The notes beneath the pieces were generated by a model, which saw only the letters and a list, made by a program, of their open reading frames with translations, had not been told where the DNA came from and searched no databases. This document shows positions 6,445 through 32,000 of a stretch of 32,000 nucleotides of DNA, piece after piece. This DNA comes from Candidatus Syntropharchaeum caldarium (GTDB taxonomy: Archaea; Halobacteriota; Syntropharchaeia; Syntropharchaeales; Syntropharchaeaceae). Where the stretch lies: NCBI GenBank assembly GCA_001766815.1, contig LYOS01000006.1:20147-52146 (forward strand). The letters run 5' to 3'. Both the position numbers and the translations under genes were made by a program. Within the stretch, counting starts at the first letter, position 1. Each line of letters opens with the position of its first letter.

Positions 6445-6579
6445 ATGGTAGAAATGTCAGATGAGCAAAAAAGATTGAAAGCTCAGGCATGTCGAGATGA
6501 GATCGGAGATAAATTTCCGATGAGTACCTGTATCAATCACTGCCCGCTCTATGAGATCTGTAAAGATTTGCCGAGGTAG
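6445..6579 (+). CDS. putative 44-aa Cys4 small protein
   Basis: This is the internal Met of track ORF 6367..6579: MVEMSDEQKRLKAQACRDEIGDKFPMSTCINHCPLYEICKDLPR. GGAGGT (6434..6439) lies 5 nt upstream of the ATG. There are four Cys (C-x13-C-x3-C-x6-C). The stop overlaps the first 10 nt of tRNA-Ser. No homology was recognised. Confidence 0.3.
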   Translation: MVEMSDEQKRLKAQACRDEIGDKFPMSTCINHCPLYEICKDLPR

Positions 6580-6655
6580 CCAAGCGGCCTACGGCGCTGG
6601 TCTTGAAAACCAGTGGGGCTTACGTCCCGCAAGGGTTCAAATCCCTTCCTCGGCG
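6570..6655 (+). tRNA. tRNA-Ser (anticodon UGA), class II with long variable arm, no encoded CCA
   Basis: I folded it by hand. Acceptor GCCGAGG (6570-6576) pairs with CCTCGGC (6648-6654), and the discriminator is G6655. Anticodon stem is CTGGT/ACCAG with loop CTTGAAA (anticodon TGA at 6604-6606). Variable-arm hairpin is GGGGC-TTAC-GTCCC. The T arm is AAGGG-TTCAAAT-CCCTT. Confidence 0.93.
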
Positions 6656-26703: not shown

Positions 26704-26776
26704 CGATCATCGAGCACTGTTTTACTTTACTTACTCCTGAATCTTGTCGTTCGCCTCCAGATGGTCATACCAAAAA

Positions 26777-26788
26777 TTTATATAAAAG
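26777..26788 (+). promoter_or_regulatory. TATA-like box upstream of the orphan 231-aa ORF
   Basis: tttatataaaag lies in an AT-rich 156-nt gap. The inverted repeat GGATTC(26801-26806)/GAATCC(26817-26822) follows it. Pattern only. Confidence 0.3.
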
Positions 26789-26859
26789 ATTAATAGAATA
26801 GGATTCAATTGGAAGAGAATCCTTCCATTTATAGAACGTATGATCGAGAGGAATGAATA

Positions 26860-27555
26860 ATGTTCGATGAACATTCTAAAAATGATCTATCTGTGAAGGA
26901 TTATGTTACTAAGCTGTTTGAGTATGGTAAATACGAACAGCTGAGGGTGATCGATGAAGTACTGAACAGTACAGATAAACGAGGAGTTCGGGGCGTATAT
27001 GAGATCACTGAAGAGCAAAAGAGACCGCGAAAATTTGAGCCCTACCCTGGCATCATAGAAGAGCATGAAAATTATATCGCCATTTCACCTGCTGTGATAG
27101 ATGAATTAAGTGATGTTATTAACAGCGAAAAAGAAAAAAGAACGGCTGATCTGAGAAATGCTGTATCGAAAAAAATAGAGGAACTACAACAAAAAAAACC
27201 TGGCGTTGAGGTCGATCATGTGGATGAGAGAATGTTGAAGATCAAATCACAGGACGACATGCCACTGTATATTTATATATCAACATGGCTAATTCGAAGC
27301 GATTTTAAAAAGACTTTTGATGATGACTCACATCTTGTAATTTCAGTTACACATCAGCCAGTTCATTCTATTGTGAATTTTGTCGATGAGAACCAGAGTT
27401 TATTCGATTCCTTACTGGCAATTTCGTTTTATGAAAGTGATTATCCCGAGACGAAATCGTTTATAAGGGTTTTGCGGGGCTATAAACATCCGTTGCTGAA
27501 TGAAATTTTTGTCGGATCCGCGTACTCATACTTCAATCGGATAAGTATGTGGTAG
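26860..27555 (+). CDS. hypothetical protein (231 aa), no recognisable domain
   Basis: This is a long ORF in AT-rich DNA with a purine-rich stretch (gagaggaatgaataATG) upstream. It is acidic and Lys-rich with a central coiled-coil-like EKEKRTADLRNAVSKKIEELQQKK. I recognised no family. Confidence 0.5.
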   Translation: MFDEHSKNDLSVKDYVTKLFEYGKYEQLRVIDEVLNSTDKRGVRGVYEITEEQKRPRKFEPYPGIIEEHENYIAISPAVIDELSDVINSEKEKRTADLRNAVSKKIEELQQKKPGVEVDHVDERMLKIKSQDDMPLYIYISTWLIRSDFKKTFDDDSHLVISVTHQPVHSIVNFVDENQSLFDSLLAISFYESDYPETKSFIRVLRGYKHPLLNEIFVGSAYSYFNRISMW

Positions 27556-27707
27556 AGGAGAACTGCCTTCAGCAGACCAGTTTGGTGAAGTCTTTATCAA
27601 AGGCATCTTGTAGAGCTGTACATCATGGGGGTTCAGATTGAGTGAGCTCTTTCACACTACCGAAAAACATAAGTGAAAACAAAAAAGCTTATCAAAAATT
27701 AGAAAAA

Positions 27708-27717
27708 CTTTAAATAC
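27708..27717 (+). promoter_or_regulatory. TATA-like box upstream of the disrupted hsdM 5' region
   Basis: ctttaaatac follows an A-rich tract and lies about 10-20 nt upstream of where the hsdM-related reading frame opens (27726). Pattern only. Confidence 0.25.
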
Positions 27718-27725
27718 TGGTATAA

Positions 27726-28308
27726 CTGAGTCCCTTTATAAACCATACTGAAGCCAAGCTCCCAAAGTGGCTTGAGAGCAGATATTCAATACTATGGGAT
27801 GCTTTTGCTGATTCAAACTTCAGAATGGAGGATGCTGCAAAGGTTTTAGAGGAGAAGAAAAAGATAGCAGGGATCAGGTTGGTGTAATTCTTTCTGAGCT
27901 TAGAAAAAATGATTGGCTACAGGTAGAGCTTGATCCAGAGGATGCAAGAAAAAGACTTTACAGGCTTAAAAGCAAGGAAGAAATTATATCTGAAACTATT
28001 TCTCTCAAGAATAACAGGCTAACAAGGGGCGAGATCGAGGTTCTCTTGAAGAGGGCAGCAGATCTTATACGCACAGGGTTGACTACACCTTCATCCTTGT
28101 CCTTCTCTTCTACAAGAGGATCAGCGATAAGTGGGAGATTGAGTATGAAAGAGCTTATAAAGAGGCTCTTGAGGATGGATTCAGTGAGGAGGAGGCAAGA
28201 GAAGAAGCAAAAAGCTCAATCTATCACGATTTTGACCTTCCTGAGGAGTTTCTGTGGGAGAAGATCAGAAAGTATCCATCTAAATTATCAGAAAACTTCT
28301 CTAAAGCG
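27726..28308 (+). pseudogene. hsdM: frameshift-disrupted 5' part of hsdM (wHTH-like extension plus HsdM N-terminal domain)
   Basis: One coherent protein can only be read by joining three frames. Frame A (27726-27887) reads ..LPKWLESRYSILWDAFADSNFRMEDAAKVLEEKKK. Frame B (open 27812-28312, with no start codon before 28046) reads DSRDQVGVILSELRKNDWLQVELDPEDARKRLYRLKSKEE...TRGEIEVLLKRAADLIRT. Frame C (open from 28015, continuous with 28309..29511) reads VDYTFILVLLFYKRISDKWEIEYE.... The last two pieces together give the HsdM_N signature (L.KAAD.LR....Y....L.LLF.KRISD). Confidence 0.6.
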
Positions 28309-29511
28309 ATGAAAGCGATTGCTGAGAGAAATCCAGAGCTTAGAGATGTCTTTGAGAATATCGATTTCCTTCAGTTCACATCAAGCAGGGAGAATACAGA
28401 GATGCTGGGACAGCTTGTTGAGATCTTCAGCGCAAAACCCCTCCATCATGTATCCCCTGATATACTTGGGGATGCCTATGAGTGGATTCTGCATTACTTC
28501 GCCCCACAGAAGGCAAAGGAAGGGGAGGTTTACACACCGAGGGAGGTTATAAAGCTCCTGGTCGAGATACTCGATCCAGAGCCTGAAGAGAGCGTGTATG
28601 ATCCAGCCTGTGGATCTGGGGGCATGCTCATAATCTCATACAGGCACGTTGAGAATTTGCATGGTAAAGAAGGAGCGGAAAAGCTGTTTCTCTTCGGACA
28701 GGAGGCAAATCCAAAGACACTTGCCCTTTCAAAGATGAACCTGTATATCCATGATATAAGAAATGCCCAGCTTGCACACGGCGATACCCTGCTCTATCCA
28801 AAGTTCAAAGAAGGTGATGGGCAGAAGAGGTTTGATATCGTCATAGCAAACCCACCCTGGAATCAGGACGGCTACAGTGAGAATGAGCTTAAGAAGGGTG
28901 AGTTCTGGAATAAGCGGTTCAGATATGGCTTTACTCCAAAGCAGTCTGCAGACTGGGCATGGATCCAGCACATGATCGCATCTGCAGACGAGGATGGAAG
29001 GGTTGGAGTTGTTATTGACAATGGCTGTCTCTTCAGGGGTGGGAAGGAGAAGGCGATAAGGAAAGGAATACTGAGGGATGATCTGGTTGAGTGTGTTATT
29101 CTGCTCCCTGAAAAGCTCTTCTACAACACTGGGGCACCAGGGGCTGTACTCATTTTCAAAAAGAATAAGCCTGATGAGAGAAAAGGCAAGGTTCTCTTTA
29201 TCAATGCATCAAATGAGTATGAGCAGCATCCTGAAGTGAGAAAGCTCAATCGCTTAGGAGATGAACACATTGAGAAGATCGCCAGTGCCTATCGAGAATT
29301 TAAGGAAATGGATGGGTTTACAAGGGTTGTTGACCTTGAAGAGATCAAAGAGAATGATTACAACCTGAATGTAACCCTGTATGTCTTTCCAGAGGAGGAA
29401 GTTGAGGAGATTGATGTCGGCAAGGAATGGGAGGAGCTTAAGAGGATTGAAGGAGAGATAATGGAGGTTGAGGAGAGGATTGAGGGGTATTTGAGGGAGG
29501 TTGGGGTTTGA
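28309..29511 (+). CDS. hsdM: type I restriction-modification N6-adenine DNA methyltransferase subunit (catalytic part)
   Basis: It has TPREVIKLLVEILDP, motif I DPACGSGGML, motif IV IANPPWN, and a Glu-rich coiled-coil C-terminus. The frame stays open upstream to 28015 with no start codon (see the pseudogene entry). Confidence 0.9.
   Translation: MKAIAERNPELRDVFENIDFLQFTSSRENTEMLGQLVEIFSAKPLHHVSPDILGDAYEWILHYFAPQKAKEGEVYTPREVIKLLVEILDPEPEESVYDPACGSGGMLIISYRHVENLHGKEGAEKLFLFGQEANPKTLALSKMNLYIHDIRNAQLAHGDTLLYPKFKEGDGQKRFDIVIANPPWNQDGYSENELKKGEFWNKRFRYGFTPKQSADWAWIQHMIASADEDGRVGVVIDNGCLFRGGKEKAIRKGILRDDLVECVILLPEKLFYNTGAPGAVLIFKKNKPDERKGKVLFINASNEYEQHPEVRKLNRLGDEHIEKIASAYREFKEMDGFTRVVDLEEIKENDYNLNVTLYVFPEEEVEEIDVGKEWEELKRIEGEIMEVEERIEGYLREVGV
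29476..29493 (+). repeat. direct repeat copy 1 (hsdM 3' end), partner at 30397..30414
   Basis: AGGATTGAGGGGTATTTG here versus AGGATTGAGGAGTATTTG at the partner site, 17/18 identical. Both are in frame, encoding RIEGYL and RIEEYL, and each ends 5-6 codons before a stop. Confidence 0.8.
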
Positions 29512-29572
29512 TAGAGGTACAAAAGAAGATGATCAAAACCGGAAAGATGACTGTAAACTCGCAGAAGTCGAT

Positions 29573-29635
29573 ATGGTCTCAGAGGAGTGGGTTTGGAGAG
29601 AGTTGATAGGTTATGGGAAGGAAAGTAAAAGATAG
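29573..29635 (+). pseudogene. hsdS: relic hsdS 5' end (20-codon stub)
   Basis: The stub MVSEEWVWRELIGYGKESKR* parallels the N-terminus of the intact hsdS at 31734 (..IPEEWEVVRLGEVITYVKGKK). It shares the exact 12-mer CAGAGGAGTGGG (29580-29591 versus 31786-31797). Confidence 0.45.
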
Positions 29636-30350
29636 AGAAGATGATGATAGGAAAAAGATGACGATCGGGGAACTGAACAAAATTTACTATGGACCTGATA
29701 GGGATGGTAGAAATGTATCGGTAAATGAAATAAAAGGATATGAGGACTTCCAGAGGGGCCGTATCCTTTCTCCATTAAGAGAAAAAGATGTTAAACGATT
29801 CTTTGCTCCCATTGGTGAGGTTGAAAAAATACCAAGAAACAACCAGAAGAAGACCAATGACTTTAAGATAGAGAGTGAGAAACTTATGATAGAGGTAAAG
29901 TCAATAAACACAACCGTTAATGCAACTGGAGAGCAGGACGAAGATGGAAACATCCCGATTAACTTACCTGGAAATGAAAACAAGTTTATCGAAAGAATAA
30001 ATAGATGTATAGAACTTGCAGAAGCGAAAGAAGACGCCCCTGAAGACTATAAGAAGGTCGTTGTCATACATCTTGACCCTGTGATGCTTGGACTTAACCC
30101 TGATCTTCCGGATAAGGTATTTCATCCCGAGTTTATTAAAAAGACAAGTTTTATCTATAGTTCTCTTGATGGTTTGATCTTTTTGCCACCAAAAATTGGA
30201 TTCATCAAAAGTTATGGAGAGACACCACCAGGACCGATATGTTACAGACCGATAGGTTACGTGAAAGGTCATAAGATGATGGAATTGCTGAGTAAAATCA
30301 ATGAATTGGAAGTAAAGCTTTTGGAGGATGAAGATGACGCGAAGATATGA
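29613..30350 (+). CDS. hypothetical protein with PD-(D/E)xK-like nuclease motif (245 aa)
   Basis: TNDFKIESEKLMIEVKSIN carries D83...E94-V-K96. This has the D-x(10)-E-x-K spacing and the hydrophobic-EVKS strand typical of Hjc/NucS/restriction-endonuclease-fold proteins. An alternative start is ATG 29658 (MTIGELNK). No family name was recognised. Confidence 0.55.
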   Translation: MGRKVKDREDDDRKKMTIGELNKIYYGPDRDGRNVSVNEIKGYEDFQRGRILSPLREKDVKRFFAPIGEVEKIPRNNQKKTNDFKIESEKLMIEVKSINTTVNATGEQDEDGNIPINLPGNENKFIERINRCIELAEAKEDAPEDYKKVVVIHLDPVMLGLNPDLPDKVFHPEFIKKTSFIYSSLDGLIFLPPKIGFIKSYGETPPGPICYRPIGYVKGHKMMELLSKINELEVKLLEDEDDAKI

Positions 30351-30435
30351 TCGAGCAGGGTATGAGGGGGCCCTGAAAGGAAAAGACAGGCTTGGAAGGA
30401 TTGAGGAGTATTTGGATGAATTAAGGAGGTTATAG
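30334..30435 (+). pseudogene. relic hsdM 3' end, or a 33-aa coupled micro-ORF
   Basis: It reads MTRRYDRAGYEGALKGKDRLGRIEEYLDELRRL*. GGAGGA lies 5 nt upstream. It contains repeat copy 2 (30397-30414) of the hsdM terminus. Its TAG overlaps the GTG of the next gene by 1 nt (TAGTG at 30433-30437). Confidence 0.4.
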
Positions 30436-30644
30436 TGTCTTTAAAAATTATTCTTAATCTCTTTATTGATCATCCCTTGGCAGCGATCATTTCTCTATTA
30501 TTTGGTGGCGGGATTTTATTTGGACTTATTGGAGGATTAACAGGAATAGAGTTTTTCTTAGATCATTGGATGACATTGATTGGTTTAGGCGCTTTAATCA
30601 TTCTGCTAAGTTTTGCGTTGGAATTATTAAGAGAGGGATATTGA
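30435..30644 (+). CDS. small membrane protein, two predicted TM helices (69 aa)
   Basis: The start is GTG, preceded by AAGGAGG. The sequence has two hydrophobic Gly-rich segments: PLAAIISLLFGGGILFGLIGGLTGI and WMTLIGLGALIILLSFALELL. Its stop TGA abuts the next ATG (TGAATG). Confidence 0.6.
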   Translation: MSLKIILNLFIDHPLAAIISLLFGGGILFGLIGGLTGIEFFLDHWMTLIGLGALIILLSFALELLREGY

Positions 30645-31733
30645 ATGGAGAGTAACTATATAAATCAGACTCCAAAAAAATGGGGGGAGTTGAGTGCAAA
30701 CACAAAGACAAAAGATGAGATAAAACTTGAAGTCTATTCAGATGAAATAAACAGAGTCAAATTATCTATTGATAACTCGGTCTGGATGTATATAGGAGCG
30801 CTTTTTGTTCCGATAAACTTCAAGGATTATTGCCTTACGAAGCTAAATAATTTACGATGTGTGAAATATGGAAACTGGCACGATGAAGAATCGGAATGTC
30901 CCCAACAATGTGGCTTCCATGAGGATAACGATACAGAAATCCACTATAAAAACCTGCATAAATCTAAATCCGATGCAGGGCCCAAGATAGCCAAAAACTG
31001 GATAAATAAGTTTATGATTCAAGAAAGCTGTCAAAAACATCGCAAACCGGTTTATTTAAACATCCTTGGTTTAAATCTCTCAAATATGAACCTTGAACTA
31101 TTCGGGGAAAATAAAGGTCGTGATCTCACGATCTACAATCGATTCTATAGGTCCGTATTGAAAGGTGGCATTAATTATTTCTTTAGGGATTACAGAAGAA
31201 TCACAATACGCCAAATATACCATGACAAAGGAAGTCAGGAGACACATGAGCTATTTTCATGGCACCCGATTTATAGGATTGGTTTAGAGAGTGAAAAAAT
31301 AAAGATAGAAAGGGATGAAATCGAATTTATCGATTCAGATCATAGAAAAAGTGGAAAAAAAGAATCGCACTTCATACAATTGATAGACCTAATCTTGGGT
31401 GCTACATACGTCTGCCTCCATAACCCATCCGATAGAAGAGAGAAGAAAGAGGTTGGTCTTGCCTTTAAACCGGCGTTAACGGTACTACTTGACCGCAAGA
31501 AAAACCCGAACAACAATTACATGGAAGGTTCTTACTACCACAGTAATTATTACAGGACATATCAGATATCTTTCTTTCCTAAAAAGAAGATGGAACTTGA
31601 TGAAATCTTTAATCAACTGGATGTATATGGTAATCAAATGACTGAAAATATGAGAATTGAGGATAATTTCTATTACGATCGCCCCATTTTGCTCACCGAC
31701 CCATCTCAACGTGATTTAACAGGGTGGTTCTAA
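30645..31733 (+). CDS. hypothetical 362-aa protein with Cys/His cluster and QLxDLIxG motif (possibly a distant DUF3800-like protein)
   Basis: It has C72-x6-H79-x5-C85-x3-C89-x2-H92 (CVKYGNWHDEESECPQQCGFH) and FIDSDHRKSGKKESHFIQLIDLILGATY (aa 228-255). The latter resembles the C-terminal DS...QLaDliaG motif I recall for DUF3800, but the N-terminal DES motif is absent (MYIGALFVP). Its stop TAA abuts the hsdS ATG. Confidence 0.6.
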   Translation: MESNYINQTPKKWGELSANTKTKDEIKLEVYSDEINRVKLSIDNSVWMYIGALFVPINFKDYCLTKLNNLRCVKYGNWHDEESECPQQCGFHEDNDTEIHYKNLHKSKSDAGPKIAKNWINKFMIQESCQKHRKPVYLNILGLNLSNMNLELFGENKGRDLTIYNRFYRSVLKGGINYFFRDYRRITIRQIYHDKGSQETHELFSWHPIYRIGLESEKIKIERDEIEFIDSDHRKSGKKESHFIQLIDLILGATYVCLHNPSDRREKKEVGLAFKPALTVLLDRKKNPNNNYMEGSYYHSNYYRTYQISFFPKKKMELDEIFNQLDVYGNQMTENMRIEDNFYYDRPILLTDPSQRDLTGWF

Positions 31734-32000
31734 ATGAATCTCAAGGAAGAATCTGGATACAAACAAACTCCAATCGGCAAAATTCCAGAGGAGTGGGAGG
31801 TTGTTAGACTTGGAGAAGTTATAACTTACGTTAAGGGTAAGAAACCAGAGATCATGGTAGAAGAATACCAAGAAGAATGCTTGCCATACCTTTCAACTGA
31901 TTATTTAAGAAATGGGAAAGCTACGCAGTTTGTTAGAATTACAGGAAGTGAAATTGTAGTAGAGGAAGGAGATATCATATTATTATGGGACGGCTCTAAT
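31734..32000 (+). CDS. hsdS: type I R-M specificity subunit, 5' part (runs off window end)
   Basis: Absent from the ORF track because there is no stop in the window. My translation reads MNLKEESGYKQTPIGKIPEEWEVVRLGEVITYVKGKKPE...GDIILLWDGSN, which is the typical HsdS TRD1 opening (P.(E/G)W....LGE...........GD.L....GS.). Confidence 0.85.
   Translation, partial: MNLKEESGYKQTPIGKIPEEWEVVRLGEVITYVKGKKPEIMVEEYQEECLPYLSTDYLRNGKATQFVRITGSEIVVEEGDIILLWDGSN

What the first reader, a model, noticed from the sequence alone, without database searches (positions are those of the whole stretch)
29512..31733. Coupled three-to-four-gene cassette wedged between hsdM and hsdS of a type I R-M locus
hsdM and hsdS normally abut or overlap. 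Here the hsdM stop (29511) and the hsdS ATG (31734) are 2.2 kb apart.

The gap is filled, on the same strand, by:
- a 245-aa ORF with a PD-(D/E)xK-like D...EVK motif;
- a 33-aa micro-ORF or relic;
- a 69-aa two-TM protein;
- a 362-aa protein with a Cys/His cluster and a QLxDLIxG motif.

The junctions are translational-coupling style: TAG/GTG overlap at 30433-30437, TGA-ATG at 30642-30647, and TAA-ATG at 31731-31736. The cassette therefore looks expressed as part of the R-M operon.

The cassette looks more AT-rich and Lys/Asn/Ile-rich than hsdM, judged by eye and not computed.

Established precedent is the PrrC anticodon nuclease inside the EcoprrI type Ic locus and the 'rlo' restriction-linked ORFs in Campylobacter. 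These show that such a position typically hosts secondary defence or abortive-infection modules policed by the R-M proteins.

I do not recognise this nuclease-like, tiny membrane protein and Zn-finger-like protein combination as any named system.
Basis: partly seen in the sequence, partly recalled or inferred. Interest (0 to 1): 0.85.

Follow-up and report, generated by a model that had tools for sequence, protein, structure and literature searches.

The report
Accessory defence-type genes inside restriction operon
An archaeal type I restriction-modification operon carries, between its methylase and specificity genes, three separately acquired conserved genes (a nuclease-like protein of an undescribed family, a tiny membrane protein and a DUF3800 RNase H-like nuclease): a further example of the known habit of defence genes nesting inside restriction systems, not one new multi-gene system.

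Summary
hsdM ends at 29511 and hsdS starts at 31734.

The three larger ORFs are genuine genes, with homologues and dN/dS of 0.15-0.29. They are not one conserved cassette.
- **Empty site.** A related locus (hsdM 64% identical) has hsdM-69aa-hsdS with abutting stops and starts. The 69-aa two-TM glycine-zipper gene is therefore resident in this operon lineage.
- **245-aa gene.** It arrived with a duplication of the hsdM 3' end; the "micro-ORF" is that relic. Its family has no Pfam or PADLOC model and carries invariant E57/D83/E94/K139. It sits just downstream of hsdM or type IIG R-M genes elsewhere.
- **362-aa gene.** It lies exactly between the 69-aa stop and the hsdS start. It is a Zn-cluster subfamily of DUF3800 (a predicted RNase H-like nuclease) and is related to PADLOC candidate PDC-M04A. 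It is wedged next to hsdS in at least four other lineages, including Clostridia.

One distant locus has hsdM, then a 245-family gene, then a canonical DUF3800 gene.

hsdM itself carries frameshifts. Function is inferred: backup or abortive effectors embedded in R-M, as with PrrC and Ronin. I rate it a new variant of a known kind, of moderate interest.

The parts
27826..28308 (+). 5' part of hsdM (wHTH-like extension plus the HsdM N-terminal helical region), split over three reading frames. The frameshifts lie near the A-run at 27855-27864 and the GGG at 28073-28078.
   Evidence: Three-frame translation. tblastn with the intact 507-aa HsdM of L045 aligns only from 28075 onward: '..AADLIRT|RVDY..' is in frame in L045 and out of frame here.
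28309..29511 (+). hsdM core ORF (400 aa), a gamma-class N6-adenine methyltransferase.
   Evidence: PF02384 E 5.9e-119. PADLOC MTase_I E 5.2e-100, matching from profile position ~110. 64% identical to L045 HsdM.
29512..29612 (+). 101-nt spacer with a purine-rich SD-like GGAGAG about 15 nt before the ATG. No RNA structure signal.
   Evidence: Fold z-score +0.47. Only the ribosome-binding stretch is conserved with the spacers of 245-family genes elsewhere. No Rfam hit.
29613..30350 (+). 245-aa gene of an undescribed family that is linked to R-M methylase genes. PD-(D/E)xK-like, with invariant E57, D83, E94 and K139.
   Evidence: No hit in Pfam, NCBIfam, PHROGs or PADLOC. 7 close homologues and about 100 clusters. 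Alignment A4. AF2 model pLDDT 89.4. The best fold hits are weak but mostly PD-(D/E)xK nucleases. dN/dS about 0.29.
30328..30435 (+). 35-aa micro-ORF. Its 3' third (30394-30434) is a relic duplicate of an hsdM 3' end, including the ancestral hsdM-stop/69-aa-start overlap.
   Evidence: The blastn HSP between window 30394-30647 and L045 1635-1888 (77%) starts 41 nt upstream of the 69-aa start. DNA alignment. Relic peptide GRIEEYLDELRRL* against the L045 HsdM C-terminus GRIEGYLAELRWL*. No homologue of the ORF outside identical contigs.
30435..30644 (+). 69-aa small membrane protein with two hydrophobic segments and a conserved GxxxGxxxG glycine zipper (G26/G30/G34). It is the resident gene between hsdM and hsdS in this operon lineage.
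   Evidence: 8 homologues of 67-72 aa at 58-78% identity. Hydropathy profile and sequences. L045 and L046 show hsdM-TAATG-69aa-TAAATG-hsdS. dN/dS about 0.22.
30645..31733 (+). 362-aa DUF3800-superfamily protein (predicted RNase H-like nuclease) with an inserted Cys3-His cluster (C72, C85, C89, H92).
   Evidence: Invariant D33-E34, E98, H193-D194, D230/S231/D232/H233 and Q245..D248. 18/25 family members hit PF12686. 17/25 hit PADLOC PDC-M04A. The Cys/His residues are invariant in the archaeal subfamily. dN/dS about 0.15.
31734..32000 (+). 5' end of hsdS, cut by the window end.
   Evidence: PF01420 E 3.9e-6. PADLOC Specificity_I. 51 nt at 94% identity to the hsdS start that directly follows the 69-aa gene in L045.

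Best explanation
The hsdM-hsdS interval of this type I R-M operon is a mosaic embedding site. The source organism is Candidatus Syntrophoarchaeum caldarius. The interval holds three separately distributed accessory genes, not one system.

**Inferred history**
1. The ancestral operon was hsdM, then the 69-aa membrane gene, then hsdS, with overlapping or abutting stop and start codons.
2. Recombination within hsdM brought in a new hsdM 3' part together with the 245-aa gene. The old hsdM 3' end was left behind as the relic at 30394-30434.
3. A Zn-cluster DUF3800 gene was placed exactly between the 69-aa stop and the hsdS start.

**Likely mode of action (inferred, not shown)**
- The genes are read from the hsdM-hsdS transcript. 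The 245-aa gene uses its own ribosome-binding site, and the others are translationally coupled.
- They act as independent second-line or abortive-infection effectors that travel with the R-M system and may be held in check by it.
- Release when viral anti-restriction factors disable HsdM/HsdS would parallel PrrC-EcoprrI and RonA-HsdMS.

**Status of the steps**
- Shown: gene identities, conservation, purifying selection, recurrence next to R-M genes, and the insertion history.
- Inferred: co-transcription, any physical link to HsdM/HsdS, and the defence function.
For: **Real, selected genes**
- Homologues exist for all three, and dN/dS is 0.15-0.29.

**Empty-site comparison**
- L045 and L046 carry an hsdM 64% identical to the window's. 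Its stop overlaps the 69-aa start, and the 69-aa stop abuts an hsdS start that is 94% identical over 51 nt to the window's.
- The relic hsdM 3' end lies upstream of the 69-aa gene.
- pS is lower for the 69-aa gene (0.50) than for the hsdM core (0.76) against L045. This fits replacement of hsdM.

**DUF3800 identity and context**
- The DE and QxxD motifs and the HMM hits support the assignment.
- The subfamily sits between hsdM and hsdS in Methanoregula.
- It lies 1 nt from both hsdM and hsdS in a Clostridia MAG.
- It abuts hsdS in L049.
- It lies upstream of HicAB-hsdS-hsdR in Methanothrix.
- It overlaps or adjoins type IIG methylase-nucleases in Bacteroidetes and Schnuerera. It sits next to GmrSD, UvrD and a SNF2/DUF1156/DUF499 island elsewhere.
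- R-M families top the neighbour census.

**245-aa family context**
- It lies directly after hsdM in L040, followed by a canonical DUF3800 gene.
- It lies 108-150 nt after complete MmeI-like type IIG genes in L013-16, L042 and L043.

**Other**
- Neither large family occurs in IMG/VR viral contigs or PLSDB plasmids.
- Precedent for the concept: Payne et al. 2024 and Silas et al. 2023.
Against: - There is no expression or phenotype data.
- hsdM is frameshifted twice upstream of 28309, so the host R-M may be inactive, unless these are assembly errors.
- hsdR cannot be seen because the window ends at 32000.
- About half of the Zn-DUF3800 loci have no recognisable defence neighbour, for example those beside Fpo genes in Methanosarcina or beside phosphoglycerate mutase.
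- The 245-aa fold assignment rests on non-significant Foldseek hits (best E 0.025).
- The RNase H fold of DUF3800 is taken from the literature. It was not modelled here.
Confidence: 0.55

Rival explanations
1. A single coherent three-gene defence system (nuclease-like protein, small membrane protein and DUF3800 nuclease) whose parts work together.
For: - The junctions are tight.
- The identical cassette occurs in three other assemblies.
- A distant locus, L040, repeats the order hsdM, 245-family gene, DUF3800 gene, with a 14-nt overlap.
- 69-aa and Zn-DUF3800 homologues both occur on JGI contigs of 1805 nt, possibly the same contig.
Against: - No 245-aa or 69-aa homologue lies beside any of the 23 genome loci or the other fetched loci of the Zn-DUF3800 family.
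- The 69-aa gene occurs alone between hsdM and hsdS and after an HNH gene.
- The 245-family occurs without DUF3800 in 6 loci, followed by Fic or an unannotated 127-aa ORF where the contig extends, and next to RusA in L041.
- The relic shows separate insertion events.
- The DUF3800 in L040 is a different, short canonical subfamily with no detectable pairwise similarity to the 362-aa protein.
Confidence: 0.12
2. Passenger or selfish genes with no functional tie to restriction. On this view the hsdM-hsdS junction is merely a permissive recombination spot where accessory genes accumulate and are carried along. TA modules do the same in related loci.
For: - Related type I loci are littered with HicAB, MNT/HEPN, ParDE and MazE/PIN modules at the same junctions.
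- Zn-DUF3800 genes also occur in non-defence surroundings.
- The whole 26.7-32 kb block has foreign composition.
Against: - The placement is precise and recurs across domains of life. DUF3800 lies 0-1 nt from hsdS in the window, L049 and L036, at 62% and 30% identity respectively.
- The 245-family sits consistently just downstream of gamma-class N6-methylase genes.
- This is more regular than random accumulation would predict.
- All three genes are under purifying selection.
Confidence: 0.15
3. Accessory subunits of the restriction enzyme itself. On this view the 245-aa PD-(D/E)xK-like protein is an alternative or extra nuclease for the HsdM/HsdS core, and the 69-aa protein tethers the complex to the membrane.
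For: - The 245-family gene is always immediately downstream of a methylase-bearing R-M gene.
- The 69-aa gene is translationally coupled between hsdM and hsdS in two lineages.
- The hsdR status in the window is unknown.
Against: - The type IIG enzymes upstream of 245-family genes already carry their own D...ExK nuclease motif (VDYTI...FVVEAKP).
- L045 has hsdR fragments, so the lineage is a classical type I system.
- The 245-domain is also fused or paired with unrelated nucleases (TOPRIM, RusA). That suits a sensor or partner role better than a dedicated R subunit.
Confidence: 0.1
4. A decaying locus. On this view the R-M operon is being pseudogenised and the intervening ORFs are functionless remnants.
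For: - There are two frameshifts in the hsdM 5' part.
- A relic fragment lies inside the gap.
- The related L045 locus has a split hsdS and a fragmented hsdR.
Against: - The three cassette ORFs are intact and length-conserved, with dN/dS of 0.15-0.29.
- The catalytic-type residues of the DUF3800 protein are all intact.
- The identical sequence was recovered from four independent samples.
- Both frameshifts lie in homopolymer runs and could be assembly errors.
Confidence: 0.08

Closest known systems
Genes 'embedded' in type I R-M, BREX and DISARM systems (Payne et al. 2024, guilt-by-embedding; PADLOC PDC candidates, in particular PDC-M04A)
   Same: - The same phenomenon: uncharacterised genes nested on the same strand between hsd genes.
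- The Zn-DUF3800 family hits the PDC-M04A model (17/25 members, best E 8.3e-10). That model was built from proteins embedded in such systems.
   Different: - PDC-M04 is defined as a two-gene cassette (FAM_00014>>FAM_00043). Scanning every cassette protein against PADLOC returned only the PDC-M04A match, so no partner was found.
- The window protein's own hit is weak (E 1.2e-4, one 45-residue stretch).
- The 245-aa and 69-aa families are in no PADLOC model.
- That survey used RefSeq genomes, and these archaeal lineages are mostly MAGs.
DUF3800 (PF12686): predicted RNase H-fold nucleases of retron type VII and of Cas12a2/Cas12a3 and type VI-F accessory proteins
   Same: - The N-terminal DE and C-terminal QxxD motifs are conserved, as described for the family.
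- It keeps defence-system company.
   Different: - About 130 residues longer than canonical members such as the 218-aa one in L040.
- It carries a Cys3-His insert and extra conserved HD/DSDH motifs.
- It scores below Pfam's gathering threshold (16 against 21 bits).
- No reverse transcriptase, CRISPR or TPR partner is present.
- None of the 11 DUF3800-associated RNA motifs is found in the window or in 18 homologue loci.
Ronin (RonA-HsdS-HsdM) decoy immunity of E. coli (Silas et al. 2023)
   Same: A very small hydrophobic protein tightly linked to hsdM and hsdS. In Ronin it is a cell-death effector restrained by HsdMS and released by anti-restriction proteins.
   Different: - There is no sequence similarity between RonA and the 69-aa family by blastp or profile search.
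- The window protein has two strong hydrophobic segments where RonA has one weak one.
- The gene order is hsdM-x-hsdS, not ronA-hsdS-hsdM.
- The host is an archaeon.
- The function is untested.
PrrC anticodon nuclease in EcoprrI, and the Campylobacter rlo genes
   Same: A non-R-M gene is wedged between hsd genes of a type I locus. PrrC is kept latent by the R-M proteins.
   Different: - No cassette protein matches any PADLOC model other than PDC-M04A, or any Pfam family with support.
- The domains differ. PrrC is an ABC-ATPase with an anticodon nuclease; here the domains are PD-(D/E)xK-like, a glycine-zipper peptide and DUF3800.
PD-(D/E)xK restriction-endonuclease-like superfamily
   Same: - The 245-aa family has an alpha-helix Glu (E57), then D83 on a strand, then E94-x-(T/K) on the next strand.
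- The top Foldseek hits are SfsA, BsmI, CdiA-CT, MUS81, SduA, BstEII and EcoRV.
   Different: - The canonical Lys is not conserved. An invariant Lys (K139) sits on a later helix.
- No structural match is significant (E >= 0.013, TM <= 0.3 on the query).
- No Pfam clan member is detected above noise.

Membership tests
Type I restriction-modification system | HsdM gamma-class N6-adenine methyltransferase | tested here: met
   PF02384 E 5.9e-119 and PADLOC MTase_I E 5.2e-100.
Type I restriction-modification system | Intact full-length hsdM reading frame | tested here: not met
   The N-terminal ~107 codons are out of frame relative to the intact L045 homologue, with two frameshifts. Assembly error cannot be excluded.
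Type I restriction-modification system | HsdS specificity subunit | tested here: met
   PF01420 E 3.9e-6 and PADLOC Specificity_I E 3.9e-10 on the 88 codons visible.
Type I restriction-modification system | HsdR helicase-nuclease in the locus | not testable with these tools
   The window ends 267 nt into hsdS, and the 52-kb source contig could not be retrieved. Related loci do have hsdR downstream.
DUF3800 (PF12686) | N-terminal DE motif | tested here: met
   D33-E34 are invariant in 25 sequences. The motif definition comes from Mestre et al. 2020.
DUF3800 (PF12686) | C-terminal QxxD motif | tested here: met
   Q245 and D248 are invariant (FIQLxDxxxG).
DUF3800 (PF12686) | Pfam HMM score above the gathering threshold | tested here: inconclusive
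   The window protein scores 16.0 bits against a cut-off of 21 (E 0.021). 18 of 25 family members match at E <= 0.01, best 2.4e-6. Precomputed PF12686 hits exist on several homologues, and one is named DUF3800 by UniRef.
DUF3800 (PF12686) | RNase H-like fold | not tested
The fold is taken from the literature. No PDB sequence relative was found.
PADLOC candidate system PDC-M04 | Component A HMM match | tested here: inconclusive
   Window protein E 1.2e-4, covering residues 239-283 only. 17/25 family members match, best 8.3e-10.
PADLOC candidate system PDC-M04 | Presence of the second cassette gene (FAM_00043 / component B) next to A | tested here: not met
   Scanning all cassette proteins and 245-family members against PADLOC returned no PDC-M04 component other than A. 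The cassette definition comes from Payne et al.'s supplement.
PD-(D/E)xK nuclease superfamily (245-aa protein) | Conserved D ... (D/E)-x-K catalytic motif on adjacent strands | tested here: inconclusive
   D83 and E94 are invariant in 47 sequences. Position 96 is mostly T. K139 is invariant on a later helix.
PD-(D/E)xK nuclease superfamily (245-aa protein) | Significant structural similarity to a known member | tested here: inconclusive
   The model is confident (pLDDT 89.4). The best PDB hit has E 0.025 and the best viral hit E 0.013. The top lists are dominated by PD-(D/E)xK nucleases, but none is significant.
Ronin (RonA) | Sequence homology to RonA | tested here: not met
   blastp and a profile of 9 family members against RonA of E. 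coli D5 gave no alignment.
Ronin (RonA) | Small membrane protein tightly linked to hsdM/hsdS and toxic unless HsdMS is present | not testable with these tools
   The linkage is shown. Toxicity and suppression need experiments.
PrrC / rlo restriction-linked genes | PrrC-type ABC-ATPase with anticodon nuclease, or RloA/B/C domains | tested here: not met
   No match of any cassette protein beyond PDC-M04A and DUF3800 in PADLOC, Pfam or NCBIfam at E <= 0.1-1.

The most novel reading that the evidence does not exclude
The 245-aa family may be the conserved sensor or adaptor of a previously undescribed R-M-linked defence module with interchangeable effectors. The downstream partners seen are DUF3800, RusA and Fic, plus a TOPRIM fusion.

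In this archaeon it would operate alongside a glycine-zipper peptide that is an archaeal functional analogue of RonA. HsdM/HsdS would then act as a guarded decoy, and inhibition by viral anti-restriction proteins would unleash nucleases and a membrane toxin.

This would be the first guard or decoy immunity layer described for archaeal restriction systems.
Probability: 0.2. Interest if true: 0.75.

Novelty: new variant of a known kind. Interest (0 to 1): 0.5.

Why it matters
Nesting of extra defence genes inside restriction operons is an established route to new immune systems (PrrC, Ronin, the 2024 guilt-by-embedding survey). Archaeal examples, however, are essentially unstudied. This locus offers three things.
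- **A family with no database model.** It has about 100 clusters and a confident predicted structure. It sits consistently just after adenine-methylase R-M genes and pairs with varied nucleases or toxins.
- **A recurrent hsdM-DUF3800-hsdS architecture.** It is shared by archaea and Clostridia, and it gives the enigmatic DUF3800 nucleases a third defence context besides retrons and CRISPR.
- **A small glycine-zipper membrane protein coupled between hsdM and hsdS.** It invites a direct test of RonA-like decoy immunity in archaea.

The empty-site comparison and the relic also document how such operons are rebuilt by recombination.

Tried and rejected
- **Known DUF3800-associated RNAs.** Rfam gathering and E-value scans of the window, and gathering scans of 18 homologue loci, found none. 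The 101-nt spacer shows no structure (z +0.47) and only RBS-level conservation.
- **First AF2 run on the 245-aa protein.** With 8 sequences it failed (pLDDT 43.5). It was rescued with a 47-sequence alignment built from the exhaustive representative search.
- **Profile searches against PDB sequences.** Nothing for either family.
- **245-aa protein as the missing nuclease of the upstream type IIG enzymes.** Rejected, because those enzymes carry their own D...ExK motif.
- **Viral or plasmid origin.** No relatives of either large protein in IMG/VR or PLSDB.
- **RonA homology of the 69-aa protein.** Rejected.
- **PDC-M04 membership.** No partner gene detected.
- **Scans with broad alignments.** The metagenome scan with a narrower alignment returned only 3 loci, so statistics for the 245-family neighbourhood remain thin.
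- **The 52-kb source contig.** It could not be fetched to see hsdR.

Full report
**1. Observation**

- hsdM core: 28309-29511.
- 245-aa ORF: 29613-30350.
- Micro-ORF: 30328-30435.
- 69-aa ORF: 30435-30644, with a GTG start overlapping the TAG stop.
- 362-aa ORF: 30645-31733, with TGA followed directly by ATG.
- hsdS: from 31734, with TAA followed directly by ATG.

HsdM and HsdS are confirmed by Pfam and PADLOC.

The composition claim holds numerically. Cassette genes have GC 0.34-0.38, against 0.464 for the hsdM core. However, hsdS and an upstream orphan 231-aa ORF are equally AT-rich. The entire 26.7-32 kb block is low-GC (0.398 against 0.468 for the rest), so hsdM is the outlier.

The source is Candidatus Syntrophoarchaeum caldarius (protein OFV67236.1, 52-kb contig). 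Identical copies of the cassette occur in three other assemblies.

**2. The 362-aa protein is a DUF3800-superfamily nuclease**

- It has 126 homologues. Most are in methanogen-related archaea, and some are in Bacillota, Bacteroidota and other bacteria.
- An alignment of 25 members shows invariant D33-E34, E98, H193-D194, D230/S231/D232/H233 and Q245..D248. These include the DE and QxxD motifs that define DUF3800.
- The window protein is sub-threshold on Pfam (16 against 21 bits).
- 18/25 members hit PF12686, and 17/25 hit PADLOC's PDC-M04A.
It is an insertion that some bacterial members lack.
- The literature describes DUF3800 as an RNase H-fold nuclease. It is the effector of type VII retrons, an accessory of Cas12a2/a3 and VI-F loci, and is associated with 11 orphan RNA motifs. 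No biochemical function has been shown.
- None of those RNA motifs is present here or in 18 homologue loci.

**3. Context of the Zn-DUF3800 subfamily**

It recurs at the same kind of place. The type I R-M contexts are:

| Locus / lineage | Arrangement |
|---|---|
| Methanoregula | Between hsdM and hsdS |
| Clostridia MAG (30% identity) | 1 nt after an hsdM 3' end and 1 nt before hsdS |
| L049 (62% identity) | Abutting hsdS |
| Methanothrix | Upstream of HicAB-hsdS-MNT/HEPN-hsdR |

Other defence contexts are:
- Overlapping or adjoining type IIG methylase-nucleases in a Bacteroidetes MAG and in Schnuerera.
- Next to GmrSD.
- Next to UvrD.
- Next to a SNF2/DUF1156/DUF499 island.

A census of 133 neighbours in 17 further loci puts R-M methylase and specificity families on top. 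Roughly half the loci, however, have no recognisable defence neighbour.

**4. The 245-aa protein belongs to an undescribed family**

- No library recognises it.
- It has 7 close homologues. An exhaustive profile search finds about 100 clusters at 50% identity, mostly of 200-230 aa.
- Across 47 sequences only E57, D83, E94 and K139 are invariant.
- With the deep alignment AlphaFold gives pLDDT 89.4.
- Foldseek finds no significant relative. Its best weak hits are almost all PD-(D/E)xK nucleases: SfsA, BsmI, CdiA-CT, MUS81, SduA, BstEII and EcoRV, plus viral 'restriction endonuclease', DUF559 and Vsr entries.

Its contexts are:

| Locus | Arrangement |
|---|---|
| L040 | Directly after an hsdM end, followed with a 14-nt overlap by a canonical 218-aa DUF3800 gene |
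| L013-16, L042, L043 | 108-150 nt after complete MmeI-like type IIG genes that carry their own D...ExK motif; followed by Fic (L013, L043) or an unannotated 127-aa ORF (L014) |
| L041 | Overlapping a RusA gene |
| P0132 | Fused to an OLD-type TOPRIM domain |
| L044 | Beside a PDDEXK_1 gene, with a DNA-methylase-like ORF (judged by eye from a DPFCGSGS motif) 1.3 kb downstream |

The family is therefore R-M-linked. It keeps company with varied nucleases or toxins.

**5. The 69-aa protein and the empty site**

- It has 8 homologues of 67-72 aa at 58-78% identity.
- It has two strongly hydrophobic segments and a conserved GGGILFGLIGGLTG glycine zipper.
- In L045 and L046 an intact HsdM (64% identical to the window's) ends in TAATG, which starts the 69-aa gene. 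The 69-aa stop is followed directly (TAAATG) by an hsdS start.
- That hsdS start is 94% identical over 51 nt to the window's.
It is empty of the 245-aa and 362-aa genes but not of the 69-aa gene.

**6. The micro-ORF is a relic**

- The similarity between the window and L045 starts 41 nt upstream of the 69-aa start.
- The DNA there aligns with hsdM 3' ends.
- It encodes GRIEEYLDELRRL*, against GRIEGYLAELRWL* at the end of L045 HsdM.
- The 245-aa gene therefore lies between two copies of an hsdM 3' end. This is the signature of recombination with another hsdM locus that carried a 245-family gene downstream, as L040 does.
- Synonymous divergence from L045 is lower for the 69-aa gene (pS 0.50) than for the hsdM core (0.76), in line with hsdM replacement.

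**7. Selection and integrity**

- dN/dS is about 0.22 (69 aa), 0.29 (245 aa) and 0.15 (362 aa).
- By contrast, hsdM's first ~107 codons and a wHTH-like extension are spread over three frames. The shifts fall in an A-run (~27855-27864) and a GGG run (~28073-28078).
- This is either pseudogenisation or assembly error.
- hsdR lies beyond the window.

**8. Interpretation**

The best-supported reading is a mosaic embedding site, not a single system. It holds one resident small membrane gene plus two independent insertions of R-M-associated nuclease-type genes.

By analogy with PrrC/EcoprrI and Ronin, and in line with the guilt-by-embedding survey, they most likely act as second-line or abortive effectors co-expressed with HsdM/HsdS. 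That step is inference.

RonA homology was tested and rejected. PDC-M04 membership fails for lack of the partner gene. No PrrC or rlo domains are present.

Neither large family is found in viral contigs or plasmids.

**9. Novelty and score**

- The phenomenon is known, and the DUF3800 relative is already on a candidate list.
- The new elements are the 245-aa family, the cross-domain hsdM-DUF3800-hsdS architecture, the hsdM-coupled glycine-zipper peptide in archaea, and the reconstructed insertion history.
- Verdict: a new variant of a known kind, interest about 0.5.
- A 0.2-probability reading would merit about 0.75: an archaeal guard or decoy layer with a new sensor family and swappable effectors.

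Noticed in passing
window 27826-28308: The hsdM 5' region is broken by two frameshifts in homopolymer runs (A-run ~27855-27864, GGG ~28073-28078). It also carries a wHTH-like N-terminal extension that the intact L045 homologue lacks. This is either a pseudogene or an assembly error.
   Followed up: partly
window 26704-32000, including ORF 26860-27555: A low-GC block (0.398 against 0.468) begins right after the gltD-like gene. It contains an orphan 231-aa ORF with no hit in any library. It may mark the edge of an acquired island carrying the whole R-M locus.
   Followed up: partly
L004 2894-3298; L024 14194-14571 (-); L025 11979-12353 (-): A 134-aa gene recurs next to, or within 1-3 kb of, Zn-DUF3800 genes in three lineages at 52-56% identity. 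It looks ASCH-like by eye. No library scan of it was run, and no precomputed Pfam hit was listed.
   Followed up: no
L038 8058-10933: In a Woesearchaeota MAG a UvrD helicase gene overlaps the start of the DUF3800-like gene. This recalls the Cas12a2 + TPR-DUF3800 + UvrD loci reported by Altae-Tran et al. 2023.
   Followed up: no
L031 8990-9313 and 10001-10641: The Zn-DUF3800 gene is split into two pieces about 700 nt apart in a Methanotrichaceae MAG. This is a likely insertion or a pseudogene.
   Followed up: no
L045 1886-3720: In the empty-site locus, hsdS is itself interrupted after about 24 codons by a ParDE-type toxin-antitoxin insertion, and hsdR is fragmented. The same junctions are hit repeatedly by insertions.
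   Followed up: partly
L047 479-1298; L048 393-1212: A 67-aa homologue of the glycine-zipper protein lies downstream of a 171-aa HNH-domain gene instead of hsdM. The small membrane gene is therefore also mobile.
   Followed up: no
P0188 (378 aa), residues ~230-378: One 245-family member has a C-terminal extension that looks GIY-YIG-like by eye (..YTIYVGSGENLSGRG..). Pfam did not detect it at E <= 0.01.
   Followed up: partly
window 6570-6655: The only Rfam gathering-level hit in the window is a tRNA gene, far from the R-M locus.
   Followed up: no
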